A program made the translations under genes and the position numbers. DNA of 64,000 bases from a virus (lineage: Duplodnaviria > Caudoviricetes), in IMG/VR virus record IMGVR_UViG_3300014205_000170, positions 320,001 to 384,000 of that record; one strand, given 5' to 3'. This document shows, piece after piece, positions 18,709 to 34,258 of the stretch. The notes under the pieces were generated by a model. The model did no database searches, was not told where the DNA came from, and saw only the letters and a program-made list of their open reading frames with translations. Each line of letters begins with the position of its first letter. Position 1 is the first letter of the stretch.

Positions 18709-19464
18709 ATGGAAAAACGCATAAAAGAGTTAAGAAGTCAACTAGAAGCAGTTGGTCTTACAAGAAAAACTAATTTCTTTTCACTTAATAAAGAACAATT
18801 AAGTGCAGAAACATTATCTTGGACAATTAAAGAATATTCGGCATTATCAAATTCTGCCATCCATCTTTTAATGGATTCTGCAGTAAGAGTTCATGATTGG
18901 GAAAAATTAAAAAATGAAGTTTTAGAAAACATTAATGAAGAAATGGGACTTGAAACAAAAAAAGTTCCTCATCTTGAAATGATGCGAATTGGATATATGA
19001 AAGAATTAGGTATTATTACAGATGAGGTGATACCATCTGATGTTACTAAATCTTTTTTAAATCACATTACAAAAGTTTTCAAACACAATGATAACGCTTT
19101 TCAGGCCGGCGCGTTATTAGCTTTAGAAGGAAGTGCAGTAGAAGAATTTCATATTATGGATGAAATTATTCAAGAATATGCGAAGAAAAGTAAATTAGAT
19201 TTTCAAAAAAATTGGTTAACCAACCTTTATATAGATGGTCATAAGACTTTCGAAATTGGTCATGAGCAACATTTGTTAGATGCTATGTTGCCATATATTA
19301 CAGAAGAAAATTTTTCTAAATTTGAATTAGGATATTCAATAGTAGTAAAATTATTTTCAACTTGGTGGCAACAATTATCTTTAGAAACAGAAGTGTTTCA
19401 ACTAAACAGGAAAATCGCTACAATAAACACTGAAGAACCAGATTTACATAAAGTCTTCGCATAA
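18709..19464 (+). CDS. Heme-oxygenase-like diiron protein (CADD/PqqC-like)
   Basis: ENINEEMG....PH, ALE and H...E..H ligand pattern. Confidence 0.65.
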   Translation: MEKRIKELRSQLEAVGLTRKTNFFSLNKEQLSAETLSWTIKEYSALSNSAIHLLMDSAVRVHDWEKLKNEVLENINEEMGLETKKVPHLEMMRIGYMKELGIITDEVIPSDVTKSFLNHITKVFKHNDNAFQAGALLALEGSAVEEFHIMDEIIQEYAKKSKLDFQKNWLTNLYIDGHKTFEIGHEQHLLDAMLPYITEENFSKFELGYSIVVKLFSTWWQQLSLETEVFQLNRKIATINTEEPDLHKVFA

Positions 19465-20969: not shown

Positions 20970-21248
20970 ATGAAAACATTCATTATAAAATATAAATGTC
21001 AATTTTGTTCTCGGTTAAACTTTGAAAAACCGATGCCTCATAAATGTGTTGGTGGTTATCGAAGAAGAAAACTCATTTGGCACCAATATTTAGTACCTAA
21101 CCAAATTGTTCTGGTTGAAAAATTTTTCCCCGATAATCCAAGAAAAAACGATTATTATTTCATTTTAAAAAACACATTACCATTTTTTTCTTTAAATTCG
21201 TATCTAATAAAACGAAAAGGAGAAAAAAATAATGAAGAAACTATTTAA
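20970..21248 (+). CDS. Hypothetical protein (CxxC...HxC)
   Basis: 92-aa ORF. Confidence 0.4.
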   Translation: MKTFIIKYKCQFCSRLNFEKPMPHKCVGGYRRRKLIWHQYLVPNQIVLVEKFFPDNPRKNDYYFILKNTLPFFSLNSYLIKRKGEKNNEETI

Positions 21249-22056
21249 AAATGACTGGGTTTCATTTTACATTGGTATTGACAGAAGTAGGTTTACTTTA
21301 AGTCCAGCTTCTTATTTTGATGAAAGATTCTACATCATTTTAACCCCAACTCTATTAATTCCTATTATAGGTGTGTTTTTTACCGGTTTAAGCTTCTGGT
21401 CTCTTGTATGGTTATTATTCATTCCATATGGTTATGGATGTCTATATATTCATCTTCCTATATATTCAGGTCTTGACGAATGTGACCCTCCGGAATATGG
21501 TTTTTATTTTTTTGGAGAAAATCTTTTAAGAATAAATTCATTTGTTGTTTGTAGGGGGAAAACTAGTAATAAATACTTTAACATGCCATGGTATTGGGTT
21601 TGGGAACGAACTAGTAAATTAAAAAAAGATGGTACTTGGCAACATGATTTGAGAAAAAAGAAATTTGATTTTTATACTAAAGAATGGGAAAACGAAGTTT
21701 GGAAAGAAGAATATCCGTTTACTTATATTTTAAAGAATGGTAATATACAACAAAGACTAGCGATAATTACTGTGCATGAAATGGAATGGCGTTGGAAAGC
21801 TTTAAAAATTTTACCATTTCCACGGATGATTCGTAAAAGTATCGATATTCAATTTGAATATGGGGGTCCAATTGAAAGAGAAATATTTTTTGAAAAACAA
21901 GGAAATAAATCCAAGTATTTAGAAAAATACACCGGAGAAGTTGGTGAAAGAACTGGAGGTTGGAAAGGCGGAACCACTGGGTGTAGTTACAGTATGCGAC
22001 AAAATGAAACTCCTCTTGAAACTTTAAGAAGAATGGAAAAAGAAAGAAAATTTTAG
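21232..22056 (+). CDS. Hypothetical protein with hydrophobic segment
   Basis: 274 aa; EVGERTGGWKGGTTGC C-terminal motif. Confidence 0.7.
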   Translation: MKKLFKNDWVSFYIGIDRSRFTLSPASYFDERFYIILTPTLLIPIIGVFFTGLSFWSLVWLLFIPYGYGCLYIHLPIYSGLDECDPPEYGFYFFGENLLRINSFVVCRGKTSNKYFNMPWYWVWERTSKLKKDGTWQHDLRKKKFDFYTKEWENEVWKEEYPFTYILKNGNIQQRLAIITVHEMEWRWKALKILPFPRMIRKSIDIQFEYGGPIEREIFFEKQGNKSKYLEKYTGEVGERTGGWKGGTTGCSYSMRQNETPLETLRRMEKERKF

Positions 22057-22128
22057 TAAAAGCTTTAAATTTTAAAACTTTTTCTTAACTTTAACGTATA
22101 ATAAGAAAAATAGACTACTTATAATTAT

Positions 22129-22215
22129 ATGATTACTAAAAATACATATCACTATTTGACACTTAATGTGGTCGTGGCGCACTTTTTACAAGTCGTCCAG
22201 CCGGACTATATTTAA
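22129..22215 (+). CDS. Val-rich attenuator leader peptide MITKNTYHYLTLNVVVAHFLQVVQPDYI
   Basis: 28 codons with GTG GTC GTG and GTC GTC; directly upstream of terminator and ValRS. Confidence 0.8.
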   Translation: MITKNTYHYLTLNVVVAHFLQVVQPDYI

Positions 22216-22269
22216 ACTTTAGTGTATTATAATACATTCAGACTCCGGCTAAACAAGTCGGAGTTTTTT
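22199..22269 (+). promoter_or_regulatory. Attenuator (antiterminator/terminator) of valS
   Basis: Terminator GACTCCGGCT(22241-50)/AGTCGGAGTT(22256-65) plus T-run; AGCCGGA(22199-205) pairs perfectly with TCCGGCT(22244-50). Confidence 0.8.
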
Positions 22270-22289
22270 ATTTTTAAAAAATTAATTTT

Positions 22290-23642
22290 ATGAAAACAGA
22301 TAATAAATACAAAATAGATATGCCACCACCAACGATAAGTGGTAAATTACATATGGGTCACGCTTTTTCTTATACACAAATGGATTTTATAGCGCGATAT
22401 CAACGAATGAAAAATAAAGAGTTGATTTACCCATTTGGTTATGATAACAATGGAATACCAACAGAAAAGTTTGCTTACAAAAAAAGAATAACAGATACAC
22501 AAAAGATAATCGAACTTTCAAATGAAACTTCTAAAATGTATATGGAATTTTTCAATAATATAAATATGGGGTTTTCTAATCATAGTTATAACACATTTGA
22601 TAAGCTTTCCACTGAAATTGCCTTACTGTCTTTTTATGACCTCAAAGAGAAAGGGTTGCTTTATAAAGGAAAAGAAAATTATTCTTTTTGTACTTCTTGT
22701 AATAAATCGATTCCTAATTCTGAAATTGAAAATAATAAACACATTAGAGATAATGGTGATATTATTGAAAAAGAAGGGGAAGGTTATTTTATTAAAACCA
22801 AAGACTTTAAACAAGAACTTATAGAACAAATTGAAAAAATAGAATGGAAACCTGAAAAATTCAAGAATAGAATTTTAAGTTGGATTAATGATATGGATAG
22901 AGATTGGTCAATTGCTAGACGCAGAGATTATGGAATTTCAATTCCAGGAGAATCTGAACTAAAGTTTGATACATGGTTTACCTCTTCTTTAACTCCTCAA
23001 ATAGCATGGGCATCTCATACCGGTATTGCTTCTTTAGAATGTCCTATTTTTGATTTAAGATTTCAAGCACATGATATTATTAGTACTTGGGCGCTATATA
23101 CCATCATTAAATCTTATCACCACAATAAACAAATACCATGGAAACAGATTATTATCACTGGACATGCGCTTGATAAAAATGGTGATAAACTTGCAAAGAG
23201 TAAAGGAAATTGTACCACCACTGATTATTACATAAAAGAATTTGGTGGAGAAGGAATAAGATATTGGGCAGCTCAAACTCAAATTGGAACCGATACATTA
23301 TTAGATGATGAAACAATGAAAAATTGTAAAAAGCTTATGATTAAACTTAAAAATGCATATAAATTCATAGAGTTTCAAAAATCCAAAGAATGGCTTGGTT
23401 TCAATAAAGAGAAAGAAATTGAGTGGGGAACAATTAAAATAAAAATAGAAGAATATTTTGAACAAGGAGATTGGGCAAAAGCATTTGAAGAATTGTTTAA
23501 TTTCTTCTGGAAAAGATTTTGCGATATTTTTATTGAAGATTCAAAAAAAGAGAGTTGTTCACAAAGCTTAGAGCTAATTTTAAATGAAATGATGATTTAT
23601 TGGCAAATTTTCTTCCCAAAAATTCAAGAAAACATAAAATAA
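22290..23642 (+). CDS. valS: Compact valyl-tRNA synthetase lacking the CP1 editing domain and C-terminal coiled coil
   Basis: DMPPPTISGKLHMGH (HIGH), DWSIARRR.YG, FDTWFTSS, QAHDII..W, KLAKSKGN (KMSKS); Val leader upstream; only 450 aa. Confidence 0.8.
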   Translation: MKTDNKYKIDMPPPTISGKLHMGHAFSYTQMDFIARYQRMKNKELIYPFGYDNNGIPTEKFAYKKRITDTQKIIELSNETSKMYMEFFNNINMGFSNHSYNTFDKLSTEIALLSFYDLKEKGLLYKGKENYSFCTSCNKSIPNSEIENNKHIRDNGDIIEKEGEGYFIKTKDFKQELIEQIEKIEWKPEKFKNRILSWINDMDRDWSIARRRDYGISIPGESELKFDTWFTSSLTPQIAWASHTGIASLECPIFDLRFQAHDIISTWALYTIIKSYHHNKQIPWKQIIITGHALDKNGDKLAKSKGNCTTTDYYIKEFGGEGIRYWAAQTQIGTDTLLDDETMKNCKKLMIKLKNAYKFIEFQKSKEWLGFNKEKEIEWGTIKIKIEEYFEQGDWAKAFEELFNFFWKRFCDIFIEDSKKESCSQSLELILNEMMIYWQIFFPKIQENIK

Positions 23643-23697
23643 AACTGAAATTATTCTATTGATTTATAGAGAATTAAGAAAAAAAACATAAAAAAAC

Positions 23698-23757
23698 TTT
23701 GTTTTATTGAAACTTTACCTTAAATTTGACGTTAGAATATAAAATTGTACTATTTAT
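23698..23757 (+). promoter_or_regulatory. Stacked putative promoters of the tRNA-array leader
   Basis: TTTG(23698)-N19-TAAATTTG(23721); GAAAC(23709)-N16-CGTT(23730); CTATTTAT(23750). Confidence 0.55.
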
Positions 23758-23826
23758 TATAAGTTGAACCCCATATAAATGGGAGATACAGTGCGGGGTC
23801 TCTCACAGCTTATTTAGAATTAGAAA

Positions 23827-23928
23827 ATGAAAAATGTAAATACATACACGGTTAATACACTAAGACAATTAGTGTTAGAACAACTTATAGAAAGTTGTCC
23901 AGCTGGGATATGTTCGTTTACAAGTTAA
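23827..23928 (+). CDS. Mixed-codon attenuator leader peptide MKNVNTYTVNTLRQLVLEQLIESCPAGICSFTS
   Basis: 33 codons; ACG, CTA, AGA, TTA, GAA, CTT and ATA match downstream tRNA anticodons. Confidence 0.7.
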   Translation: MKNVNTYTVNTLRQLVLEQLIESCPAGICSFTS

Positions 23929-23984
23929 TTATATATAACTAAACGTTCTTCAAGAACCCCGGCTTTAAAAGGTCGGGGTTTTTT
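23901..23984 (+). promoter_or_regulatory. Attenuator of the 11-tRNA array
   Basis: Terminator AACCCCGGCT(23955-64)/GGTCGGGGTT(23971-80) plus T-run; AGCTGGG(23901-07) pairs with CCCGGCT(23958-64). Confidence 0.75.
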
Positions 23985-23998
23985 GTTTTATTGATATT

Positions 23999-24070
23999 GC
24001 CTTATTAGCTCAGTTGTAAGAGCGCTCGTTTCGTAAACGAGAGGTCATCAGGTCGAACTGATATGAGGCT
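23999..24070 (+). tRNA. tRNA-Thr(CGT), atypical T-loop
   Basis: Acceptor GCCTTAT/ATGAGGC; anticodon arm CTCGT-TTCGTAA-ACGAG; T-loop GTCGAA. Confidence 0.75.
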
Positions 24071-24081
24071 CAAAAAAATAT

Positions 24082-24168
24082 GCCTTCGTGGTGAAATTGG
24101 ACAGAGACACAAGGGTCTTAAAAACCCTCGGATTTAATTCCATGCGGATTCGAGTTCCGCCGAAGGTA
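24082..24168 (+). tRNA. tRNA-Leu(TAA)
   Basis: AGGGT-CTTAAAA-ACCCT; long variable arm. Confidence 0.9.
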
Positions 24169-26028: not shown

Positions 26029-26442
26029 ATGAAAAAATTTCTGTTAATATTTTTTATAGTTTTAAGTTTAGCGTGCAAATCTCAAACTAAAAATTTGTGG
26101 CAAAAAATTCCAGATGACGCAAAACATGTTTATTCTGGTGTGATAATTACAATGGTAACTGGTGATTTAGTTTATAAATATTCAAAAGGAAGAACAGGAT
26201 TAGCGGTAGGAGTTGGTTTTTTATCAGGAGTAACCGCAGGAGTGGCAAAAGAATTGATATGGGACAAGTGGATGGGAAAAGGCGTTCCGAGTAAGTGGGA
26301 TGCATTTAGTACTGCGTGGGGAGCAGGAATAGGCACTATATCACTTAGGGTAATGATAGATGTTAGAGAACGAAAGCAGTATGATGAATACTCAATAGAA
26401 AAATTAGGTAAAAAGAAAAAAAGAAGACATAGAAATGGTTAA
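26029..26442 (+). CDS. YfiM-like putative lipoprotein/membrane protein
   Basis: Signal peptide with LAC; D..KH, G..KE..D and D....WG pattern. Confidence 0.55.
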   Translation: MKKFLLIFFIVLSLACKSQTKNLWQKIPDDAKHVYSGVIITMVTGDLVYKYSKGRTGLAVGVGFLSGVTAGVAKELIWDKWMGKGVPSKWDAFSTAWGAGIGTISLRVMIDVRERKQYDEYSIEKLGKKKKRRHRNG

Positions 26443-26515
26443 CATAACAATTAATATTCAACAACAACAGCAACAACAAACTCTAAATAAGGGTTCCGGA
26501 ATTGCTTTGTCTTGA
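26435..26515 (+). CDS. Gln7 attenuator leader peptide MVNITINIQQQQQQQTLNKGSGIALS
   Basis: CAA CAA CAA CAG CAA CAA CAA at 26459-26479; ATG overlaps the end of the upstream gene. Confidence 0.85.
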   Translation: MVNITINIQQQQQQQTLNKGSGIALS

Positions 26516-26571
26516 CGTTATTAATTTAACAAATTACAAAAAGCCTGGAACTTAAAGTTTCAGGCTTTTTT
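26492..26571 (+). promoter_or_regulatory. Attenuator of the tRNA-Gln/glnS operon
   Basis: Terminator AAGCCTGGAACT(26541-52)/AGTTTCAGGCTT(26556-67) plus T-run; GGTTCCGG(26492-99) pairs with CTGGAACT(26545-52). Confidence 0.8.
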
Positions 26572-26577
26572 ATTTAT

Positions 26578-26648
26578 TGTCCTATAGTGTAATGGCAGCA
26601 CAAGAGATTTTGACTCTCTTAGTCTAGGTTCGAGTCCTAGTGGGACAA
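26578..26648 (+). tRNA. tRNA-Gln(TTG) 1
   Basis: AGAGA-TTTTGAC-TCTCT; T1-A72. Confidence 0.9.
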
Positions 26649-26653
26649 CATAT

Positions 26654-26725
26654 TCCTCGTTGGTCTAATGGCAATGACGTTGGTTTTTGACACCAAAAGT
26701 GGTAGTTCGATTCTATCACGAGGAA
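26654..26725 (+). tRNA. tRNA-Gln(TTG) 2
   Basis: TTGGT-TTTTGAC-ACCAA. Confidence 0.9.
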
Positions 26726-26730
26726 CAAAT

Positions 26731-26803
26731 TGCTCCATAGTATAATGGCCTATTATCGCTGCCTTTGAAGCAGAAGACCTTGGTTCGATTCCAAGTGGAG
26801 CAT
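26731..26803 (+). tRNA. tRNA-Gln(TTG) 3
   Basis: CTGC-CTTTGAA-GCAG. Confidence 0.85.
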
Positions 26804-26810
26804 CTAAAAT

Positions 26811-26883
26811 TGCCTTATAGTATAATGGTTATTATTCTCGTTTCTGAGACGATGAGATGTTGGTTCGAATCCAGCTTAGGTAA
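26811..26883 (+). tRNA. tRNA-Gln(CTG)
   Basis: TCGT-TTCTGAG-ACGA; one T-T mismatch in acceptor stem. Confidence 0.8.
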
Positions 26884-26906
26884 CAAACAAAAAAAATCGT
26901 AACTTT

Positions 26907-34096: not shown

Positions 34097-34258
34097 ATGG
34101 AAACAATATTTCATTTATTAGGATTATGTCCAGACGCTCATTCACATTTTGATATGCTTGATGTAGTAGCTTTATGGGATTCAATAATTTTTTATTGTTC
34201 TCGTCTATCACTTCTTTTTATTAAAATTAAAATTACTATTTTGGATTTAATAAAATAA
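34097..34258 (+). CDS. Small hypothetical protein (53 aa; not in ORF track)
   Basis: METIFHLLGLCPDAHSHFD...; stop overlaps next ATG. Confidence 0.45.
   Translation: METIFHLLGLCPDAHSHFDMLDVVALWDSIIFYCSRLSLLFIKIKITILDLIK

What the first reader, a model, noticed from the sequence alone, without database searches (positions are those of the whole stretch)
22129..22269. Val-sensing leader and attenuator upstream of phage valS
Seen: the leader has GTG GTC GTG (22168-76) and GTC GTC, which are G/C-ending Val codons in a very AT-rich genome. AGCCGGA pairs perfectly with the terminator 5' arm and encloses an inner hairpin (22221-22238). The VVV triplet ends 22 nt before the antiterminator strand, suitable for a stall to expose it; the second VV pair abuts it. 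The leader independently supports Val specificity of the truncated synthetase.
Basis: partly seen in the sequence, partly recalled or inferred. Interest (0 to 1): 0.8.

Follow-up and report, generated by a model that had tools for sequence, protein, structure and literature searches.

The report
Valine-sensing leader switch before phage valS
A 519-kb phage places a tiny test gene with three valine codons and a switchable transcription stop in front of its own valine-tRNA-charging enzyme, and that enzyme contains no valine at all, so it can probably be switched on and built exactly when charged valine tRNA runs out.

Summary
This includes a 28-codon ORF (22129-22215) with GTG GTC GTG and GTC GTC, a 7-bp antiterminator pairing (22199-22205 with 22244-22250), an inner hairpin, and an intrinsic terminator 24 nt before valS.

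Comparative evidence supports the reading. At least 14 distinct distant relatives of this editing-domain-less ValRS (43-50% identity) carry a short ORF with an invariant Val run (VVV, sometimes VIV or VV). It is followed by an anti-antiterminator, antiterminator and terminator set whose strands covary. In simulated stalls, the Val run lies where a paused ribosome frees the antiterminator.

Val-run codons are mostly the rare GTC and GTG.

The regulated ValRS has no valine in 450 residues, where about 24 are expected. All 19 leader-bearing loci scored have 0-1 Val.

- The VVV codons lie inside an unnoticed region 1.
- A stall on the second VV pair should favour termination.

This is a new member of the trp/ilv/pheST class of leader-peptide attenuators, here in a phage. 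I found no publication describing it. Earlier notes of this scan report Val leaders before valS on other DNA, and Gln, Lys and mixed leaders before tRNA arrays in this genome. Nothing has been shown experimentally.

The parts
22097..22125 (+). Promoter-like AT-rich stretch with two TATAAT hexamers (22097-22102 and 22120-22125) just upstream of the leader ATG. The transcription start is not known.
   Evidence: Read from the sequence. The sigma-70 scan gave no hit above chance here. Relatives carry TAnnTTTG or ATATATA motifs 4-14 nt before the leader ATG. L104 has TTGACA-17-TATTAT placed so that transcription would start at the ATG. This part is inferred.
22129..22215 (+). Leader ORF of 28 codons with five Val codons and a TAA stop at 22213-22215.
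   Evidence: Homologous or analogous mini-ORFs occur upstream of valS in relatives.
22168..22176 (+). Regulatory Val run GTG GTC GTG (codons 14-16). It lies inside region 1.
   Evidence: A Val run is invariant in the leaders of relatives. A simulated stall here gives 0.99 sequestration of the terminator's 5' arm.
22165..22178 (+). Region 1, the anti-antiterminator strand. It pairs with 22200-22212.
   Evidence: MFE structures. The hairpin 22165-22213 is -14.8 kcal/mol.
22192..22197 (+). Second Val pair GTC GTC (codons 22-23). It is homologous to the GTC GTC core of the closest relatives' mini-ORF. A stall here is predicted to favour termination.
22199..22212 (+). Region 2. AGCCGGA (22199-22205) pairs with the terminator's 5' arm as the antiterminator. 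Positions 22200-22212 pair with region 1.
22221..22238 (+). Small AT-rich hairpin enclosed by the antiterminator (-2.9 kcal/mol).
22240..22276 (+). Intrinsic terminator. The 5' arm (region 3) is 22240-22250, the loop 22251-22255, the 3' arm (region 4) 22256-22266, and the T-rich tail 22267-22276.
   Evidence: -14.8 kcal/mol.
22290..23642 (+). Regulated gene. It encodes a 450-aa ValRS-like class Ia synthetase that lacks the CP1 editing domain and the C-terminal domain, and contains no valine.
   Evidence: NCBIfam ValRS scores 346 bits against 165 for IleRS. The alignment to 1GAX skips chain residues 194-362. It has 0 Val where 24.1 are expected, Poisson p 3.6e-11, and is the only Val-free ORF among 357 of at least 150 aa.

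Best explanation
This is a ribosome-mediated, leader-peptide transcription attenuator of the trp/ilv/pheST type. It makes transcription of the phage's own valS depend on how fast ribosomes decode valine codons.

Proposed mechanism:
- Transcription starts just upstream of 22129, and the 28-codon leader is translated as it is made.
- When Val-tRNA(Val) is plentiful, the ribosome runs to the TAA at 22213-22215 and covers region 2 (22199-22212). Regions 3 and 4 then form the terminator (22240-22266 plus the U tract), and RNA polymerase stops 24 nt before valS.
- When charged tRNA(Val) is scarce, the ribosome pauses on GTG GTC GTG (22168-22176), which lie inside region 1. Region 2 is then free to pair with the terminator's 5' arm (22199-22205 with 22244-22250). 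The terminator cannot form, and valS is transcribed.
- The ValRS contains no valine, so it can be translated even when no Val-tRNA is available. This closes a rescue loop.

What is shown and what is inferred:
- Shown: the sequence elements, their conservation and covariation in relatives, the position of the Val run relative to the alternative helices, and the Val-free composition.
- Inferred: the transcription start, translation of the leader, pausing, and any response to valine.
For: 1. Anatomy of the window. All four regions, the stop codon and the terminator are in the canonical order. Energies are 1:2 -14.8, 2:3 -12.8 and 3:4 -14.8 kcal/mol.
2. Conservation. At least 14 distinct loci whose ValRS is only 43-50% identical carry a 14-20 codon ORF with VVV (VIV in L035 and L103; VV in L037). 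The ORF lies 70-100 nt before valS, or about 700-1150 nt before it where a gene is inserted in between. It is followed by an intrinsic terminator in each locus checked. One of these is the published record LR745206.1. Of 2729 distinct small ORFs in these loci, 26 contain VVV, and 15 of those are these leaders.
3. Specific complementarity. The leader 3' end pairs with its own terminator 5' arm at a mean of -12.5 kcal/mol. Cross-locus pairs average -8.9 and shuffled leaders -4.6. The motif pairs change together between lineages: GAUGUUGG/CCAACAUC, GAUAUGUUGG/CCGACAUAUC, GAUGUUAG/CUAACAUC, GGUGUCG/CGACAUC, CCCCGGU/ACCGGGG, and AGCCGGA/UCCGGCU in the window.
4. Pair counts on a covariance-model alignment of 13 loci. 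The terminated state is 86% paired, against 35-48% when partners are slid. 11 of its 19 pairs have compensatory changes, and covariation is 0.391 against 0.208 (0 of 500 shuffles). The antiterminator was not used to build that alignment. It is 81% paired against 32-58% slid, with 3 compensatory pairs (3 of 500 shuffles).
5. Geometry. Region 2 starts 10-12 nt after the Val run in 11 of 13 loci, and region 1 starts at nt 8-10 of the run. With a ribosome footprint imposed on a transcript ending before region 4, sequestration of the terminator's 5' arm in most relatives rises from 0.02-0.5 (free) to 0.93-1.0 (stall on Val) and is mostly low at the stop codon. In the window it is 0.99 on Val and 0.17 at the stop. 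The stall-sensitive window of 5-8 codons begins at the Val run.
6. Codon choice. The Val runs use GTC 32, GTG 14, GTT 4 and GTA 4 in loci of mostly 26-35% GC. The window's genome uses GTC for 3.6% of Val codons.
7. The regulated enzyme is ValRS-like and Val-free. 54 of 120 family members have 0 Val. All 19 leader-bearing loci have 0-1 Val, and the leaderless loci split 10 Val-poor to 8 normal.
8. The same genome carries a Gln7 leader and terminator before four tRNA-Gln genes, and a Lys5 leader and terminator before five tRNA-Lys genes.
Against: - No expression, termination or translation data exist.
- The transcription start is unknown. The nearer TATAAT (22120-22125) is so close that a start from it might fall after the ATG. 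There is no Shine-Dalgarno sequence, though valS has none either, as read.
- In the window, the 1:2 hairpin taken from the Val run onward is no better than shuffles (p 0.3). At equilibrium, the ribosome-free truncated transcript already prefers the antiterminator (0.98). Termination without translation is therefore not predicted, unlike in most relatives.
- Stalls at the second VV pair are predicted to favour termination.
- The covariance model built from the distant clade matches the window only weakly (27 bits, E 0.043).
- The window's closest relatives (71-81% ValRS identity) have a homologous Val+Leu mini-ORF. Their downstream hairpin has a weak or absent U tract and is followed by a tRNA-Leu gene, and the predicted stall logic differs. 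The window's canonical layout is therefore recently derived.
- The Fisher test is not corrected for phylogeny.
Confidence: 0.8

Rival explanations
1. The switch is real, but it reports general translation capacity (ribosome or ternary-complex supply, or transcription-translation coupling) rather than valine specifically. On this reading the Val codons are incidental.
For: In the window's thermodynamic model, a stall on nearly any of the first 21 codons gives antitermination. The same genome uses many leader/terminator units.
Against: The Val run is the only conserved feature of otherwise divergent leader peptides. Rare GTC and GTG codons are preferred. In relatives, the sensitive window is narrow and begins at the Val run. 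The regulated ValRS is Val-free. Sister leaders in the same genome use Gln or Lys runs before tRNA-Gln or tRNA-Lys genes.
Confidence: 0.08
2. In this window, the terminator simply ends transcription from the upstream Acb3-like gene, and the mini-ORF is a decaying remnant of the relatives' Val+Leu mini-ORF. valS would then be expressed by constitutive partial read-through, with no regulation.
For: The window's ORF differs from its closest relatives by a 10-nt deletion and an insertion, so the frame after the VV-Q core is not conserved. The 1:2 hairpin is not significant. No terminator follows the upstream gene before this one.
Against: There is no room for a promoter between the terminator (which ends at 22276) and valS (22290), so valS must be read through it. 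The rearranged window version regained all canonical parts: a Val run in region 1, a 7-bp perfect antiterminator, and a stop codon next to region 2. This is the layout conserved in the distant clade.
Confidence: 0.07
3. The conserved element encodes a small hydrophobic peptide or a small stable RNA co-processed with tRNAs. It would have a function of its own that is unrelated to controlling valS.
For: In the closest relatives, the mini-ORF is rich in Val and Leu. It lies between tRNA-Leu genes. In-frame indels separate L001 and L005.
Against: The hydrophobic stretch is only 9-14 residues in some members, for example L094. Peptide sequence is not conserved beyond the Val run across the distant clade. 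The frame of the 3' conserved motif differs between the window and L005. Rare GTC GTC codons are invariant at synonymous sites. No Rfam family matches.
Confidence: 0.04
4. The element is a T-box or another ligand- or tRNA-binding riboswitch that controls valS.
For: T-box elements control valS in Firmicutes (established knowledge). A terminator/antiterminator pair is present.
Against: No Rfam family, T-box included, matches 22060-22290 even at E up to 10. The leader is only about 140 nt and has no Stem I-like domain. The conserved feature is an ORF with a Val run.
Confidence: 0.01

Closest known systems
E. coli pheST attenuator with the pheM leader peptide (established knowledge; pheL-type leaders are discussed in PMC3082878)
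   Same: An aminoacyl-tRNA synthetase operon is controlled by a short leader ORF with a run of cognate codons. Alternative antiterminator and terminator hairpins lie before the gene.
   Different: The cognate amino acid is Val, not Phe. The gene is in a phage genome. There is no sequence or Rfam similarity. The regulated enzyme lacks its editing domain and contains no cognate amino acid.
Enterobacterial ilvBN (ivbL) and ilvGMEDA (ilvL) leaders, and the trp, his and leu attenuators (established knowledge; comparative surveys PMC1262725 and PMC2965389)
   Same: The four-region logic (1:2, 2:3, 3:4) is the same. Regulatory codons lie in or next to region 1, and the stop codon lies next to region 2. 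Use of a rare codon for sensitivity recalls the CUA codons of the leu leader (from my own knowledge).
   Different: Those attenuators gate amino-acid biosynthesis, and the ilv leaders are multivalent (Val, Leu, Ile). Here a run of only three Val codons gates a synthetase. The leaders probably start at or within a few nt of the 5' end of the mRNA and have no Shine-Dalgarno sequence (inferred).
T-box leaders of valS in Firmicutes (established knowledge)
   Same: The physiological logic is the same: low charging of tRNA(Val) leads to antitermination before valS.
   Different: The sensor here is a translating ribosome, not direct tRNA binding. There is no T-box match.
Cognate-amino-acid bias of amino-acid biosynthetic enzymes (PMC4209129)
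   Same: Proteins needed during shortage of an amino acid are depleted in that amino acid.
   Different: Here the depletion is complete (0 of 450 residues, and 54 of 120 family members have none). It occurs in a synthetase and is coupled to a leader that senses the same amino acid.

Membership tests
Ribosome-mediated leader-peptide transcription attenuators (trp/his/leu/ilv/pheST class) | A short ORF carrying a run of codons cognate to the regulated function | tested here: met
   The 28-codon ORF has VVV at codons 14-16 before a ValRS gene. A Val run is invariant in the relatives' leaders.
Ribosome-mediated leader-peptide transcription attenuators (trp/his/leu/ilv/pheST class) | An intrinsic terminator between the leader and the regulated gene | tested here: met
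   Stem 22240-22266 plus a T tract, 24 nt before valS. A terminator is present in all 13 loci analysed.
Ribosome-mediated leader-peptide transcription attenuators (trp/his/leu/ilv/pheST class) | An antiterminator helix that is mutually exclusive with the terminator | tested here: met
   22199-22205 pairs with 22244-22250 at -13.3 kcal/mol. Across 13 relatives it is 81% paired, with 3 compensatory pairs, on an alignment not fitted to it.
Ribosome-mediated leader-peptide transcription attenuators (trp/his/leu/ilv/pheST class) | An anti-antiterminator (1:2) placed so that a ribosome paused on the regulatory codons disrupts it, and a stop codon placed so that a terminating ribosome covers region 2 | tested here: met
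   This was tested in silico only. Region 1 (22165-22178) contains the Val run, and the stop at 22213-22215 abuts region 2. Footprint-constrained folding gives 0.99 on a Val stall and 0.17 at the stop. In the window, the 1:2 hairpin alone is not better than shuffles.
Ribosome-mediated leader-peptide transcription attenuators (trp/his/leu/ilv/pheST class) | The leader is translated, and read-through responds to charging of the cognate tRNA | not testable with these tools
   No RNA or ribosome data could be obtained.
Curated Rfam leader families (Leu, His, Thr, Trp, Phe leaders) and T-box | A match to the family covariance model | tested here: not met
   cmscan of 21000-24000 at E up to 10 gave no hit in 22060-22290.
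Valyl-tRNA synthetase (class Ia) | ValRS is the best family match, with the class I catalytic core and an anticodon-binding domain | tested here: met
   NCBIfam PRK13208 ValRS scores 346 bits, E 3e-103, against 165 bits for IleRS. Pfam tRNA-synt_1 matches at 1.6e-51 and Anticodon_1 weakly. The best PDB match is 1GAX, a ValRS.
Valyl-tRNA synthetase (class Ia) | Full-length architecture with the CP1 editing domain, and a score above the curated cut-off | tested here: not met
   The score is below the NCBIfam cut-off (346 against 738). Residues 194-362 of 1GAX have no counterpart. Aminoacylation specificity has not been tested.

The most novel reading that the evidence does not exclude
The Val-run leader and the valine-free, editing-less ValRS form one starvation-proof rescue module. 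The phage senses collapse of Val-tRNA(Val) charging at the ribosome and transcribes valS in response. It can then translate the enzyme without a single Val-tRNA. This would restore valine decoding when the host's ValRS or Val supply fails, for example under the stringent response, phage-induced host shut-off, or a host defence that targets tRNA charging. Together with the Gln, Lys and mixed leaders before the tRNA arrays of the same genome, this would mean that huge phages run a demand-driven, codon-by-codon control system for their own translation genes.
Probability: 0.45. Interest if true: 0.85.

Novelty: new member of a known kind. Interest (0 to 1): 0.7.

Why it matters
Huge phages are known to carry tRNAs and synthetases (PMC7162821), but how and when they use them is open. 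A conserved valine-sensing switch in front of a valine-free ValRS gives a concrete, testable answer for one gene: the enzyme is made on demand, when valine decoding fails. It also supports the enzyme's specificity independently of homology.

It extends leader-peptide attenuation to viruses. That mechanism is a textbook device of bacterial amino-acid operons and of pheST. The case also shows an extreme form of cognate-amino-acid avoidance. The element is absent from Rfam, so it is missed by standard annotation, including in the published genome LR745206.1.

Tried and rejected
- Rfam scan, T-box and known leader families included: no match.
- Nucleotide search of GenBank phages: one distant hit only.
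- IMG/VR searches with the single protein and with a DNA pattern from the close relatives' element found nothing. The alignment-based scan gave only relatives of 39-50% identity.
- The metagenome scan returned no relative above 70% identity. The close relatives therefore came only from exact-protein look-ups. Three of those had no DNA on hand.
- An nhmmer profile of the close relatives' element found no further copies.
- Equilibrium folding of the full leader always gives the terminator (about 0.95), whatever the ribosome position. I dropped this test as uninformative, because the decision is kinetic, and replaced it with snapshots that end before region 4.
- MAFFT-based column counts of pairs were blurred by a 2-bp insertion on both strands in three lineages. 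I repeated them on a covariance-model alignment.
- A first count of Val codons in valS used wrong frames and was redone.
- A Leu leader before the genome's own leuS-like gene: none seen. That enzyme is not Leu-depleted.
- Candidates at 34245 and 18309 from the genome scan: the first is the C-terminus of a 208-aa ORF, and the second was not pursued.

Full report
**Observation**

The window belongs to a 518,809-bp phage genome of 30% GC with direct terminal repeats.

- ORF: between an Acb3-like gene (21232-22056, Pfam 6e-37) and a 450-aa class I synthetase gene (22290-23642) lies a 28-codon ORF at 22129-22215.
- Val codons: GTG GTC GTG at 22168-22176 and GTC GTC at 22192-22197.
- Antiterminator: AGCCGGA at 22199-22205 is a perfect complement of TCCGGCT at 22244-22250.
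- Terminator: TCCGGCT is part of the 5' arm of an intrinsic terminator. Its stem is 22240-22266 (11 pairs) and its T-rich tail runs to 22276.
- Inner hairpin: the antiterminator pairing encloses a small hairpin at 22221-22238.
- Fold strength: the stretch folds far better than shuffles (-35.2 kcal/mol, z -4.2).
- Codon rarity: GTC and GTG are the rare Val codons of this genome, at 3.6% and 10.7%.

The MFE fold pairs 22165-22178, which contains the three Val codons, with 22200-22212. This is a classical region 1:region 2 anti-antiterminator of -14.8 kcal/mol. It compares with -12.8 for the 2:3 domain and -14.8 for the terminator. The stop codon (22213-22215) directly follows region 2. The layout is therefore the full four-region design of the trp type, not just an antiterminator plus terminator.

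**The regulated gene**

NCBIfam ranks ValRS first (346 bits) ahead of IleRS (165 bits), but below the curated cut-off. The best solved relative is Thermus ValRS 1GAX. In that alignment, chain residues 194-362 (the CP1 editing insertion) and the part after residue 655 have no counterpart. No Rfam family, T-box included, matches the leader.

**Relatives**

The protein family is large: 715 hits, mostly on huge-phage-sized contigs. I fetched DNA around close relatives by exact look-up and around distant relatives by pattern scans.

In the distant clade (43-50% identity to the window's enzyme), a 14-20 codon ORF lies 70-100 nt upstream of valS in L029, L030, L033, L035, L036, L039, L098, L102, L103, L104 and L108. 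In L026, L034, L037 and L100 a gene has been inserted, and the ORF lies about 700-1150 nt upstream. L108 is GenBank LR745206.1, a published 635-kb phage. These peptides share little except an N-terminal M-K/N and a Val run. The run is VVV in most, VIV in two and VV in one.

Among 2729 distinct small ORFs of these loci, only 26 contain VVV, and 15 of those are these leaders.

**Structure in the relatives**

Each of the 13 loci analysed has a clear intrinsic terminator.

The 3' end of each leader is complementary to its own terminator's 5' arm. The mean is -12.5 kcal/mol, against -8.9 for leader/terminator pairs taken from different loci and -4.6 for shuffled leaders. Twelve of 13 loci have p <= 0.015. 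The two strands change together between lineages; the motif pairs are listed in the For line.

Region 2 begins 10-12 nt after the Val run in 11 of 13 loci. It is also the 3' arm of a hairpin whose 5' arm begins at nt 8-10 of the Val run.

I built a covariance model from ten of these loci. It recovers the others and, weakly, the window's element at 22165-22271 (27 bits, E 0.043). On its alignment of 13 loci:
- The terminated state is 86% paired, against 35-48% with slid partners. It has 11 of 19 pairs with compensatory changes.
- The antiterminator was not used to make the alignment. It is 81% paired against 32-58% slid, with three compensatory pairs.
- Most unpaired cells come from lineages whose helices sit in a different register, such as the three with a 2-bp insertion on both strands.

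**Mechanistic test in silico**

At equilibrium the complete leader always forms the terminator, as expected for attenuators, where the choice is kinetic. I therefore folded the transcript as it exists before region 4 is made, with a ribosome footprint (A-site -15 to +11 or +13) held single-stranded.
- In most relatives, sequestration of the terminator's 5' arm is 0.02-0.5 without a ribosome. It is 0.93-1.0 with a Val codon in the A site, and mostly low with the stop codon in the A site.
- Scanning every codon shows a sensitive window of 5-8 codons that begins at the Val run.
- In the window, the values are 0.99 on the Val run and 0.17 at the stop.

Two differences from the relatives stand out in the window. 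The ribosome-free snapshot already favours the antiterminator (0.98). Stalls on the second VV pair give 0.1-0.2, because the footprint covers region 2. The second pair is therefore not a helper. It is the homologue of the GTC GTC core of the closest relatives.

**Codon choice**

Over 19 loci, the Val runs use GTC 32 times, GTG 14, GTT 4 and GTA 4. Most of these loci are 26-35% GC. In the distant clade, the first seven nucleotides of the run lie outside region 1. Pairing therefore does not explain the choice there. Selection for slowly decoded codons is the simplest reading, as in the rare-codon leu leader (my own knowledge). The phage has two tRNA-Val(UAC) genes and no tRNA-Val(GAC).

**A valine-free ValRS**

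While counting Val codons, I found that the window's ValRS has none in 450 residues, with 51 Ile. About 24 are expected (Poisson p 3.6e-11), and it is the only Val-free ORF among 357 of at least 150 aa.
- In the family, 54 of 120 proteins have no Val, 72 have two or fewer, and the rest have 7-40.
- All 19 leader-bearing loci scored have 0-1 Val. The leaderless loci split into 10 Val-poor and 8 normal. Fisher p is 0.001, not corrected for phylogeny.
- One of the loci counted as leaderless, L028, is cut at the contig end and does carry the 3' part of the element.
- On a tree, leaders occur in two Val-free clades and never in the normal-Val clade.

This is independent support for Val specificity. 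It also fits the logic of the switch: an enzyme induced by lack of Val-tRNA can be made without Val-tRNA.

**The window's own lineage**

The window is nested among L001, L002 and L093 (78% identity). In these relatives, and in L005 and L094, the homologous mini-ORF is rich in both Val and Leu. It lies between two tRNA-Leu genes and is followed by a hairpin that overlaps its stop codon, with a weak or absent U tract. A tRNA-Leu gene and then valS follow. In L002, L093 and L094 a truncated leuS lies directly after valS. L001 and L005 have no synthetase gene after valS.

In the window, leuS lies 229 kb away and no tRNA-Leu separates the leader from valS. The Leu run is gone, a new Val triplet and a full terminator are present, and a 10-nt deletion shifts the frame after the old core. 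Leader composition thus tracks what lies downstream.

How the close relatives' version works is unclear. There the GTC GTC core itself is complementary to the hairpin's 5' arm, and the predicted stall effects differ.

**Same genome**

A blind scan for small ORFs with a three-residue run followed by a terminator found, besides this element, two more:
- A Gln7 leader at window 26435-26515, before four tRNA-Gln genes.
- A Lys5 leader at genome 422198-422269, before five tRNA-Lys genes.

The Gln7 leader recurs in L005 and L008. Earlier notes of this scan list the same units and further mixed leaders before tRNA arrays. They also list Val-run leaders before valS in unrelated bacteria and archaea. 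I treat those notes as leads only.

**Comparison with what is known**

The device works like the trp, his, leu, ilv and pheST attenuators. The closest analogue is pheST/pheM, because there too the regulated gene is the cognate synthetase (established knowledge). It meets every sequence-level criterion of that class and none of the curated Rfam models.

In the library I could search, I found no paper describing a leader-peptide attenuator in a phage or before valS. The huge-phage paper does not mention leaders or attenuation. Depletion of the cognate amino acid is a known trend for biosynthetic enzymes (PMC4209129, found). A complete absence coupled to a cognate leader appears to be new.

**Caveats**

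Nothing has been shown experimentally. The host, the promoter and the transcription start are unknown, and the sigma-70 scan is at chance level. Relatives show TAnnTTTG or ATATATA motifs 4-14 nt before the leader ATG, and L104 has a canonical promoter that would start transcription at the ATG. This suggests very short or absent 5' UTRs, but it is inference. The window's 1:2 helix is weak evidence on its own. The covariance-model hit to the window is marginal.

Noticed in passing
window 22290-23642, and the family P0001-P0120: The ValRS-like protein contains no valine (0 of 450, about 24 expected). 54 of 120 family members have none, and the rest of the family is bimodal (0-2 or 7-40 Val). The phage's leuS-like enzyme (genome 113456-114694) is not Leu-depleted.
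   Followed up: yes
window 26435-26573: A 26-codon ORF with seven consecutive Gln codons is followed by a terminator (26540-26568) and then by four tRNA-Gln genes (26578-26884). GUUCCGG in the leader is complementary to the terminator's 5' arm. Gln7 leaders with terminators recur before the tRNA-Gln clusters in L005 (4273-4344) and L008 (4963-5037).
   Followed up: partly
genome 422198-422321 (L105 699-822): A 23-codon ORF with VVV and then five Lys codons is followed by a terminator and then by five tRNA-Lys genes (L105 830-1463).
   Followed up: partly
window 23827-23992: A 33-codon ORF (23827-23928) and a strong terminator (23952-23983) lie directly before the tRNA array that starts at 24082. 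The region gave weak Rfam 'leader' hits (rnk, PyrR, L10) and a 27-bit hit to my attenuator model.
   Followed up: no
L001 2249-2360, L002 2290-2397, L005 1463-1578, L093 1839-1957, L094 1555-1655: In the closest relatives, the homologous mini-ORF is rich in Val and Leu and lies between tRNA-Leu genes, followed by a tRNA-Leu gene and then valS. In L002, L093 and L094 a truncated leuS follows valS. The mini-ORF's stop codon falls in or next to the 5' arm of a 7-10 bp hairpin with a weak or absent U tract. The invariant GTC GTC core is itself complementary to that arm. How this version works is unexplained.
   Followed up: partly
L026 1501-2500, L034 1729-2500, L037 1244-2430, L100 1523-2500: In four relatives, a gene of about 230-300 codons sits between the Val attenuator and valS. 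This suggests an insertion, possibly of a mobile endonuclease, behind the switch. The inserted gene was not identified.
   Followed up: no
80 nt upstream of the leader ATG in L035, L036, L098, L100, L102, L103, L108 and L104: Bacteroidota-type TAnnTTTG motifs lie 4-14 nt before the leader ATG in seven relatives. In the GC-richer L104, a TTGACA-17-TATTAT promoter would start transcription at the ATG. The leaders may be leaderless or nearly leaderless mRNAs.
   Followed up: partly
window 21232-22056 and 18709-19464: The upstream gene matches the CBASS inhibitor Acb3 family (Pfam PF25187, 6e-37). A gene further upstream matches DUF3865 and haem-oxygenase-like iron enzymes.
   Followed up: no
whole genome (G000): ARAGORN finds 51 tRNA genes. 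Three have irregular anticodon loops, reported as tRNA-??? with (agaa) twice and (ca) once. There are two tRNA-Val(UAC) genes at 427912-428073.
   Followed up: no
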